Shown here piece by piece: positions 51,007 to 51,943 of a DNA stretch of 64,000 nt. The translations under genes and the position numbers were made by a program. Location: assembly GCF_009914755.1 (NCBI RefSeq), contig NC_060927.1. The stretch is one strand, 5' to 3'. Source of the stretch: the human T2T-CHM13v2.0 reference genome, Homo sapiens. The notes below the pieces were generated by a model that was given only the letters and a program-made list of their open reading frames with translations, was not told the DNA's origin and made no database searches. How positions within the stretch are numbered: position 1 is the first letter of the stretch; the number at the start of each line of letters is the position of its first letter.

Positions 51007-51425
51007 TGGCAAAAGACAATCAATGACAAAATTATAGGCTGTGCACGGTGGCTCATGCCTGTAATCCCAGCATTTTTGGAGGTCGAGGCAGGCAGATCAC
51101 CTGAGGTCAGGAGTTCGAGACCAGCCTGACCAACATGGTGAAACCCTGTCTCTACAAAAAATACAAAAATTAGCCAGGCGTAGTGGCAGGTGCTTGTAAC
51201 CCCAGCTACTTGGGAGGCTGAGGCACAAGAATCACTTGAACCCAGGAGGTAGAGCCTGCAGTGAGCCAAGATTGCACCACTGCACTCCAGCCTGGGCAAT
51301 AGAGTGAGACTCTTTCTCAAAAAAAAAAAAGTTATAATAAATTTAGCTTAAAGACTTCAACTGGCTTTATTTGTGATTCTAGAATCAAGGCAACACTTTA
51401 TTCTTTAAAATAAACTAAGTGTTCC
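51007..51425 (-). mobile_element. R-U5 fragment of an ERV1 LTR (LTR37-like) forming the 5' end of the retrocopy; split by an Alu (+, 51037-51330)
   Basis: Minus strand GGAACACTTAGTTTATTTTAAAGAATAAAGTGTTGCCTTGATTCTAGAATCACAAATAAAGCCAGTTGAAGTCTTTAAGCTAAATTTATTATAA…TTGTCTTTTGCCA resembles recalled LTR37/MER4-group 3' ends. Confidence 0.6.
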
Positions 51426-51943
51426 CCCATTTTAGTCATTTTTAAGTGAACAGTTCTATGGCATTAAACATATGCACATTGTTGTTCAACCATCACCACC
51501 ACCCATCTGCAGAACTCTTCTGTCTTTCCCAACGGAAACTTTGTACCATTAAACACTAAGTCCCCATTCTCCACCCCAGCCTCAGTACCACCATTCTACT
51601 TTCTGTCTGTATGAATTTGACTACTCTAGGTACCTCATATAAGTGGAATAATAAAGTATTTGTATTTGTCCTTTTGGCCTATTTCACTTAGCATAATATT
51701 ATTAAGGTTCATGCATGTAATAGCATGTGTCAGAATGTCCTTCCTTTTCAAGGCTGAATTATATTTCACTGTCTGTGTATACCATACTTTTTAAATTCAT
51801 TCATCCATTGACAAACACTTGAGTTACTTCCACATTTTAGCTATTGTGATTAATGCTGCTATGAACATGGGTGTACAAATATCTGTTCAAGTCTCTCATT
51901 TCACTTCTTTTGTTTATGTATCATAAGTAAAATGACTGGATCA

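What the first reader, a model, noticed from the sequence alone, without database searches (positions are those of the whole stretch)
51007..51430. The retrocopy appears to begin at an LTR transcription start: fossil of an LTR-driven germline SULT1D1 isoform
Seen: inside the TSDs, the first roughly 125 nt of the retrocopy (excluding an Alu) look like only the 3' part of an ERV1 LTR in sense orientation. It starts GGAACACTT at 51425, includes AATAAAGCC and ends TTGTCTTTTGCCA at 51007. There is no U3. One extra G (C at 51426) sits between it and the TSD. Recalled and unverified: in the LTR37-like consensus a TATAAA lies about 30 nt upstream of GGAACAC. Inference: the parent mRNA initiated at the U3/R boundary of an LTR upstream of SULT1D1 in germline or early embryo, and the extra G is the reverse-transcribed cap. 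This would record an LTR-exapted promoter for a since-lost metabolic gene. I am not aware of a description of it.
Basis: partly seen in the sequence, partly recalled or inferred. Interest (0 to 1): 0.8.

Follow-up and report, generated by a model that had tools for sequence, protein, structure and literature searches.

The report
Retrocopy starting at an LTR promoter
An ancient processed copy of the sulfotransferase gene SULT1D1 begins exactly where a retroviral LTR starts transcription, so it probably preserves an LTR-driven germline transcript of that gene, although the LTR is no longer found beside the parent gene in humans.

Summary
On the minus strand, the SULT1D1 retrocopy (48334-51426) lies inside an L1 3' end between a 15-bp target-site duplication. 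Its first 125 nt (51425-51331 and 51036-51007, split by an Alu) are the tail of a ~530-bp dispersed LTR.

In 39 other genomic copies, U3 with a TATAAA box lies upstream: 15 of 39 have it exactly, 13 of those at 31 nt. Two independent short retrocopies of the same LTR start at the same base. GGAACAC is therefore the family's transcription start.

After the LTR come 125 nt of single-copy sequence. Homology to chr4 then begins exactly at the AG acceptor of SULT1D1's first coding exon, which indicates splicing.

Human chr4 has no copy of this LTR and no match to the leader from 38 kb below to 111 kb above that exon. No source was found elsewhere in the genome either. The "cap G" is ambiguous, because 8 of 24 LTR copies carry a G there.

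Best reading (about 0.6): an LTR-initiated, cis-spliced SULT1D1 mRNA whose LTR exon was later lost from the parent locus. Main rival: a two-RNA chimera. This is a new member of a known kind, of moderate interest.

The parts
51427..51441 (-). Upstream copy of the target-site duplication (AAATGACTAAAATGG), part of the interrupted L1 3' end. It is preceded by CTT|AAAA, an L1-endonuclease-like site.
   Evidence: It matches the downstream copy at 12 of 15 positions. Intact L1 copies L029 and L030 run straight through ...AAAATGG|TAAAT.
51426..51426 (-). One extra G between the duplication and the LTR tail.
   Evidence: It is not L1 sequence, because intact L1 copies have T here. 8 of 24 LTR copies have G just before GGAACAC, so it may be templated.
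51331..51425 (-). LTR R region and start of U5 (95 nt). It starts at GGAACAC and contains AATAAA at 51371-51366.
   Evidence: 39 non-self matches, 79-86% identity; U3 and TATA box upstream in the other copies; R-only retrocopies start at the same base.
51037..51330 (+). Later Alu insertion, antisense to the retrocopy, which splits the LTR tail.
   Evidence: One search gives sub-threshold SRP/Alu-type hits on the + strand.
51007..51036 (-). End of LTR U5 (...TTGTCTTTTGCCA), with a ~10-nt internal duplication relative to other copies.
   Evidence: Most of the 39 copies listed end ...TTTTGTCTTTTGACA (L052 ends ...TTTTGCCA) and are followed by unrelated flanks.
50971..51006 (-). Single-copy leader, segment 1 (AATAGTTTGAACC...).
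   Evidence: self hit only, genome-wide; no chr4 match.
50649..50970 (+). Later Alu insertion (antisense) with its decayed tail and the second copy of its TAATCTTTTT duplication.
50626..50648 (-). Single-copy leader, segment 2.
   Evidence: (only the Alu part of the query matched elsewhere).
50491..50625 (-). Later internally deleted Alu (sense) with a (TCAA)n tail and the second copy of its TTGAATGAGG duplication.
50425..50490 (-). Single-copy leader, segment 3. It ends at the splice junction.
   Evidence: self hit only, genome-wide; chr4 homology starts just after this segment.
50266..50424 (-). SULT1D1 first coding exon (start codon destroyed), equivalent to chr4:73148727-73148568.
   Evidence: On chr4 an AG acceptor sits immediately before the first aligned bases.
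48334..50270 (-). Remaining SULT1D1 exons joined without introns, interrupted by three later Alus (about 50119-49789, 49188-48891 and 48715-48421). The copy ends after an AATAAA signal with no clear A-tail.
   Evidence: six further chr4 exons in order; 82.2% identity over all 1164 aligned nt, first coding exon included.
48313..48327 (-). Downstream copy of the target-site duplication (AAATGGTGAAAATGG). The L1 resumes at 48312.

Best explanation
This is an L1-mediated retrocopy of a chimeric mRNA. The proposed sequence of events is as follows:
1. Transcription started at the U3/R boundary of a retroviral LTR.
2. It ran through the LTR's own poly(A) signal and U5 into 125 nt of flanking DNA.
3. 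That leader was spliced, in cis, onto the first coding exon of SULT1D1.
4. The mature mRNA was reverse-transcribed and inserted into an L1 3' end on chromosome 3, tens of millions of years ago.
5. The donor LTR and its exon have since been lost from the human SULT1D1P locus.

Shown: the LTR identity of the tail, the position of the transcription start, the splice-site junction, the target-site duplication, and the absence of the LTR at the parent locus. Inferred: that the LTR lay upstream of SULT1D1, that it was later deleted, and that expression was in the germline or early embryo.
For: - The tail is the last ~108-125 nt of a ~530-bp repeat.
- That repeat behaves as a retroviral LTR. It has a TATA box and a poly(A) signal. 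One pair of copies 16 kb apart is 78.9% identical, is flanked by the same 4 bp (GTAC), and has a purine-rich tract before the 3' copy. A second copy has a 4-bp CTCT duplication.
- The 5' end of the insert lies 31 nt after TATAAA (13 of the 15 copies with an exact box).
- Two other retrocopies of this LTR (L035 on C9, L045 on C22) start at the same base and end 13-17 nt after AATAAA with an A-rich tail. L045 has a 14/16 target duplication. A chance truncation point would not recur like this.
- chr4 homology begins within 0-2 nt of the AG acceptor of the first coding exon, and all downstream exon junctions are intron-free.
- One pair of duplications in the L1 encloses the whole insert.
- No small-RNA partner lies in the leader.
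Against: - No LTR of this family and no match to the 125-nt leader exist in chr4:73110001-73260000. The best LTR hit is a 19-nt word at E 0.001, and the best leader hits have E >= 0.007. The same BLAST settings found 82-nt exon pieces at 77% identity, so lack of sensitivity is not the explanation.
- The leader matches nothing else in the human genome, so no donor locus can be shown anywhere.
- The canonical first exon of SULT1D1 is unknown here. Part of the 125 nt could be that exon, which would allow a two-RNA origin.
- There is no A-tail at the 3' end.
- Other mammals could not be examined.
Confidence: 0.6

Rival explanations
1. Two-RNA chimera. L1 reverse transcriptase copied a normal SULT1D1 mRNA to its 5' end and then switched to an unrelated LTR-initiated RNA, copying that to its cap. 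Alternatively the two RNAs were ligated or trans-spliced before copying. The LTR was never near SULT1D1.
For: - The parent locus has no LTR and no leader match.
- Chimeric L1-mediated insertions, including mRNA partners and possible trans-splicing, are described (bioRxiv 10.1101/2025.02.02.635956, passages read).
- The part of the leader next to the first coding exon could be the canonical first exon.
Against: - The only junction that can be placed is exactly at a splice acceptor, not at an mRNA 5' end.
- This reading needs two separate non-detections: the canonical first exon on chr4 and the donor locus elsewhere.
- None of the 39 LTR copies examined has a matching 3' flank.
- No snRNA-type partner is present.
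- Such chimeras are rare compared with LTR-initiated gene isoforms (recalled, not tested).
Confidence: 0.2
2. Two-step origin. An earlier SULT1D1 retrocopy landed downstream of an LTR elsewhere. The LTR then transcribed across it, and that transcript was retroposed again to chr3.
For: LTRs are known to drive transcripts that include processed pseudogenes. In mouse oocytes, 78 of 842 LTRs did so (PMC5538554, passages read).
Against: - No intermediate copy exists. The exon query finds only chr3 and chr4.
- The boundary of SULT1D1 sequence would have to coincide with an exon boundary by chance.
Confidence: 0.05
3. Chance 5' truncation. The parent transcript began further upstream at a non-LTR promoter and merely passed through an exonised LTR. 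Reverse transcription happened to stop at the U3/R boundary.
For: 5' truncation is common in L1-mediated insertions (established knowledge). GG microhomology at the junction (ATGG|G|GG) is compatible with end joining.
Against: - The end falls within 1 nt of the point shared by two independent R-only retrocopies and 31 nt after the TATA box.
- For a ~530-bp LTR this has roughly a 1% chance.
Confidence: 0.03

Closest known systems
HERV-W processed pseudogenes (L1-mobilised retroviral transcripts)
   Same: The 5' LTR is reduced to R-U5 because the RNA starts at the U3/R boundary. Both have long, variable target-site duplications at TT/AAAA-type sites (PMC5016936, passages read).
   Different: Here the RNA is not a retroviral genome. 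It is an LTR leader spliced to a host gene. The LTR family is different and much older, and no A-tail survives.
LTR-derived alternative promoters and first exons of host genes (for example ERVL/MaLR LTRs in oocytes and zygotes)
   Same: An LTR supplies the promoter and first exon, which is spliced to a downstream gene exon (PMC5538554, abstract and passages read).
   Different: The evidence here is a DNA fossil (a retrocopy), not RNA. The LTR is absent from today's human parent locus. The family appears to be class I-like (4-bp duplications) rather than ERVL.
Chimeric L1-mediated insertions (U6/L1, mRNA/L1 and others)
   Same: Two sequence sources lie inside one pair of target-site duplications (bioRxiv 10.1101/2025.02.02.635956).
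   Different: No L1 or small-RNA partner is present, and the junction lies at a splice acceptor.
Untemplated 5' G on full-length L1 insertions, ascribed to the cap
   Same: A single extra G lies between the duplication and the first transcribed base (PMC9341517, passages read, citing Lavie 2004 and Gilbert 2005).
   Different: Here the G may be templated. 8 of 24 family copies have G at that position, and a sister retrocopy has T.

Membership tests
L1-mediated processed pseudogene | Exons joined without introns | tested here: met
   Seven chr4 exons align in order and abut in the window.
L1-mediated processed pseudogene | Target-site duplication of about 7-20 bp at an A-rich site | tested here: met
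   15-bp duplication, 12/15 identical, preceded by CTT|AAAA. Intact L1 copies confirm the empty site.
L1-mediated processed pseudogene | 3' poly(A) tail after a poly(A) signal | tested here: inconclusive
   An AATAAA signal is present and the copy ends about 15 nt later, but no A-run remains.
Retroviral LTR (class I / ERV1-like) | Dispersed unit with defined ends, a TATA box, and a poly(A) signal downstream of the start | tested here: met
   The unit is ~530 bp. There are at least 554 U3 candidates and 172 motif hits. The termini are sharp, TATAAA lies at -31, and AATAAA lies in R.
Retroviral LTR (class I / ERV1-like) | Paired LTRs flanking an internal region, with a purine tract before the 3' LTR and 4-bp target duplications | tested here: met
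   One pair on C23 is 16 kb apart, 78.9% identical and has GTAC on both sides, with AAAAAGGGGA before the 3' copy. L002 has a CTCT duplication. This rests on only two cases.
Retroviral LTR (class I / ERV1-like) | Internal gag/pol homologous to gamma-type retroviruses | tested here: inconclusive
   Pfam found nothing in the 9 sense-strand ORFs of 70 aa or more. The only hit among the 6 antisense ORFs also submitted was a sub-threshold antisense RVT_1.
LTR-exapted promoter of SULT1D1 | Same-orientation LTR upstream of the parent gene | tested here: not met
   None was found in chr4:73110001-73260000 of the human T2T assembly. The nearest chr4 motif hit is at 80.4 Mb. Other species could not be tested.
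LTR-exapted promoter of SULT1D1 | LTR-initiated exon spliced to a gene exon | tested here: met
   chr4 homology starts at the AG acceptor of the first coding exon, and the leader begins at the LTR start site. This is DNA evidence only.
LTR-exapted promoter of SULT1D1 | Chimeric RNA observed (CAGE, RNA-seq) | not testable with these tools
   No expression data are available.
Template-switch or ligation chimera | A second donor locus for the 5' part elsewhere in the genome | tested here: not met
   The leader pieces hit only themselves. None of 39 LTR copies has a matching flank. Genome-wide sensitivity for ~80 nt at ~77% identity is uncertain.

The most novel reading that the evidence does not exclude
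The chr3 retrocopy is the only surviving record in the human genome of an LTR-derived promoter and first exon that once drove SULT1D1 in the germline of an early primate or pre-primate ancestor. The original LTR exon has been deleted from the parent locus, which itself became a pseudogene much later. If so, retrocopies can preserve extinct regulatory exons that comparative genomics of the parent locus would miss.
Probability: 0.55. Interest if true: 0.5.

Novelty: new member of a known kind. Interest (0 to 1): 0.4.

Why it matters
This is a clear example of a retrocopy acting as a natural 5' RACE product. It fixes the transcription start of an old LTR family to the base. It also records that an LTR-initiated RNA carrying SULT1D1 coding exons was present in cells that contribute to the germline.

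If the LTR did lie at the parent locus, the retrocopy shows that LTR promoter exaptations can arise, be used, and vanish without trace except in such fossils. That would be a bias to consider when counting LTR-driven genes.

SULT1D1 was lost in the ape lineage about 14-25 million years ago (PMC2134963, passage read). The practical consequences for human biology are therefore small.

Tried and rejected
- **Genome-wide search for the leader.** Searches returned only self hits. In one search the leader part of the query (positions 1-83) matched only itself; the two chr4 hits lie in the exon part. One search, which included a truncated Alu, was flooded by Alu matches (1435 candidates, all over the Alu part) and gave nothing on the leader.\n- **Search for the donor among LTR copies.** None of the 39 3' flanks resembles the leader. 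The best local score was 16, on a low-complexity piece.\n- **ERV leader hypothesis.** The leader has no match in 8.8 kb of the C23 provirus-like locus, so it is not an ERV leader there.\n- **Classifying the ERV by its proteins.** Pfam found nothing in sense orientation. Upstream coverage therefore stops at 111 kb.\n- **Earlier findings of this scan.** These were closed to the session.\n- **Literature.** 'SULT1D1P' occurs in 4 papers (listing only), and none is about an LTR by title or abstract. Searches combining retrocopies, LTR, alternative promoter and chimeric transcript, and processed pseudogenes, alternative first exon, LTR and fossil, listed no paper describing this locus. Only the listings were seen, plus passages of PMC5408686 and PMC5538554. 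Subscription papers are not covered, for example the original SULT1D pseudogene description, which I recall but did not see.

Full report
**Anatomy**

The window is human chr3:139500001-139564000, and the feature is on the minus strand. Read 5' to 3' on that strand, the order is:
1. An L1 3' end that stops at ...CTTAAAAATGACTAAAATGG (51427).
2. One G (51426).
3. GGAACACTT... to 51331.
4. An antisense Alu (51330-51037).
5. TATAATTTTGTCATTGATTGTCTTTTGCCA (51036-51007).
6. 125 nt of other sequence in three pieces (51006-50971, 50648-50626, 50490-50425), separated by two further Alu insertions. Each of those Alus has its own short duplication (TAATCTTTTT and TTGAATGAGG).
7. SULT1D1 exons down to 48334.
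8. AAATGGTGAAAATGG (48327-48313), followed by the rest of the L1 (TAAATTTTATG...).

Two uninterrupted L1 copies from elsewhere read ...AAAATGG|TAAAT.... Everything between 51426 and about 48328 is therefore one insertion, flanked by a 15-bp duplication (12/15 identical) at a TT|AAAA-type site.

RefSeq's SULT1D1P2 span (49237-50310) covers only about a third of the insertion.

**The retrocopy and its parent**

A BLAST of 51460-48300 against chr4:73110001-73210000 finds, apart from Alus, seven blocks in order on the minus strand of chr4, from 73148725 down to 73126444. These blocks abut one another in the window, which is the pattern of a processed copy.

Identity is 82.2% over 1164 aligned nt, giving a Jukes-Cantor distance of 0.203. 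The parent stayed functional until about 14-25 million years ago (PMC2134963, passage read). Using neutral rates that I recall rather than computed, this puts the insertion at roughly 50-90 million years. That figure is an inference.

The 3' end follows an AATAAA signal but has no A-run.

**The first 125 nt are an LTR tail**

The 95-nt piece has 139 first-look candidates in the genome. Of these, 40 were scored, and the 39 non-self matches are 79-86% identical. None lies on chr4.

Seven copies taken with 1.5-kb flanks share about 530 bp. This stretch ends about 108 nt after the point matching GGAACAC and begins about 420 nt before it.

A U3-only query from L003 has 554 candidates, and most matches start within its first 9 bases. 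The 5' edge of the family is therefore sharp.

The 3' edge is also sharp. Most of the 39 copies listed end ...TTTTGTCTTTTGACA (with variants; L052 ends ...GCCA like the window), and what follows differs in every copy.

Three observations point to a retroviral LTR of class I type:
- Two copies on C23, 16 kb apart and in the same orientation, are 78.9% identical. They are flanked by GTAC on both outer sides, and AAAAAGGGGA lies just before the downstream copy.
- L002 is flanked by CTCT on both sides.
- Together these show paired LTRs, a purine tract and 4-bp duplications.

The internal proteins could not be recognised, and the family name could not be checked.

**The 5' end is the transcription start**

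In the 39 copies, the sequence before GGAACAC is U3. Exact TATAAA occurs within 45 nt upstream in 15 of 39 copies. In 13 of those 15, the T of TATAAA is 31 nt before the first G. A further 11 copies carry a one-mismatch version.

Two of the 39 copies have no U3 at all:
- **L045 (C22:29701378-29701440).** It reads AAAAGAAGTTCTTCAG-T-GGAGCAC...AATAAAGCCAACTGGG-AAAAAAT-AAAGGTAGTTCTTCAG. This is a 67-nt R-only retrocopy with an A-tail and a 14/16 duplication.
- **L035 (C9:124886267-124886343).** It reads ...GGTTTA-G-GGAACAC...AATAAAGCCAATTGAGATCTT-AAAA, followed by a CA-type microsatellite and then GGTTTAAAAG. It probably has the same structure, with a weaker duplication.

Three independent L1-mediated copies therefore begin at the same base. 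These act as natural 5' and 3' end maps of the LTR's R region. The window's RNA read through the poly(A) site that the two short copies used.

**The extra G**

All three retrocopies have exactly one base between the duplication and GGARCAC: G in the window, G in L035 and T in L045. Among the 24 copies whose alignment reaches the first base (these include L035 and L045), the preceding base is T in 13, G in 8 and C in 3.

An untemplated G ascribed to the cap is documented for L1 insertions (PMC9341517, passages read). Here, however, a start one base earlier on a G-type LTR explains the data equally well, and the T in L045 does not fit a cap G. This point stays open.

**The junction to SULT1D1**

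On chr4 the first coding exon reads ...ATATCTAG|TTTCCTCAAAATGGACAATGAG.... The retrocopy reads ...TTCAGAAAAA|TCTCCTCAAATTGACAAGAAG.... Similarity begins within 0-2 nt of the AG and is absent before it. The 125-nt leader plus the LTR tail was therefore joined to SULT1D1 at a splice acceptor. This fits an upstream exon spliced in cis.

A GAG|GTAAGG string inside the leader (50494-50486) was not used as a donor.

**What is missing**

Four full-length LTR copies used as queries against chr4:73110001-73210000 gave only word-size hits. The best was a 19-nt match at E 0.001. The leader pieces gave only noise, with best E of 0.007.

A further 50 kb upstream was equally empty. The searched span includes the whole of SULT1E1, recognised by a paralogous last-exon hit at 73176816-73176935.

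The same BLAST settings detected 82-nt exon fragments at 77% identity. The donor LTR and leader are therefore truly absent from this 150 kb.

A conserved 20-nt R motif has 172 genomic matches against 1 for the control. The nearest on chr4 is at 80.4 Mb.

Genome-wide, the leader finds only itself. The sensitivity of that search for ~80 nt at ~77% identity is uncertain.

**Weighing the models**

The start-site conclusion is strong. I put it above 0.9.

For the origin of the chimera, the cis model needs one loss: a deletion of the LTR exon at a locus that later decayed. The two-RNA model needs two non-detections. It also does not predict a junction at an acceptor, unless the proximal leader is the canonical first exon.

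A two-step model lacks its intermediate copy. Chance truncation is contradicted by the recurrence of the same end.

My weights are: cis about 0.6, two-RNA chimera about 0.2, two-step about 0.05, chance truncation about 0.03, and unknown for the remainder.

**Comparison and novelty**

The logic is that of the HERV-W processed pseudogenes, whose 5' LTR is R-U5 (PMC5016936). The biology is that of LTR-derived first exons (PMC5538554).

I found no description of this locus. Searches returned listings only, apart from passages read in PMC2134963 and PMC2864566 (from 38), PMC5408686 (from 42) and PMC5538554 (from 46). Subscription literature and supplements were not seen.

This is a new member of known kinds. 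It is a neat fossil of moderate interest whose key claim, an LTR at the parent locus, is untested outside humans and negative in humans.

Noticed in passing
L045 (G000:C22:29701378-29701440, minus) and L035 (G000:C9:124886267-124886343, plus): These are very short retrocopies consisting only of the R region of the same LTR family. Each runs from the start site to 13-17 nt past AATAAA, followed by an A-rich tail. L045 has a 14/16 target duplication. Together they map both ends of R for this old family.
   Followed up: partly
window 49237-50310 versus 48334-51426: The RefSeq SULT1D1P2 span covers only about a third of the retrocopy. The 5' leader, the first coding exon and most of the 3' UTR lie outside the annotated span.
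   Followed up: yes
window 48421-51330: Six Alu insertions lie inside a ~3.1-kb retrocopy: 51330-51037, 50970-50659, 50625-50501, 50119-49789, 49188-48891 and 48715-48421. One is an internally deleted Alu with a (TCAA)n tail. The 50119-49789 Alu has a perfect 17-bp duplication, GGAGATTGCATGTTTTT (D17).
   Followed up: partly
window 48328-48345: The retrocopy ends about 15 nt after an AATAAA signal but has no poly(A) run. A short T-run lies between it and the duplication.
   Followed up: partly
window 50486-50494 (minus strand): A near-perfect 5' splice-site string, GAG|GTAAGG, sits inside the leader but was not used as a donor in the copied RNA.
   Followed up: no
G000:C23:107618364-107634736 (L004, L063): This is a provirus-like pair of LTRs of the same family, 16 kb apart and 78.9% identical. 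It has 4-bp GTAC duplications and a purine tract before the 3' LTR. No retroviral protein domain is recognisable in sense orientation.
   Followed up: partly
chr4:73148568-73148727 (L016): The first coding exon of the human SULT1D1P parent keeps its ATG but carries in-frame stops. Reading from the ATG gives MDNEQRVFRRELVDVQGIPLF*SIAEEWFQVELFEA*PDD.
   Followed up: no
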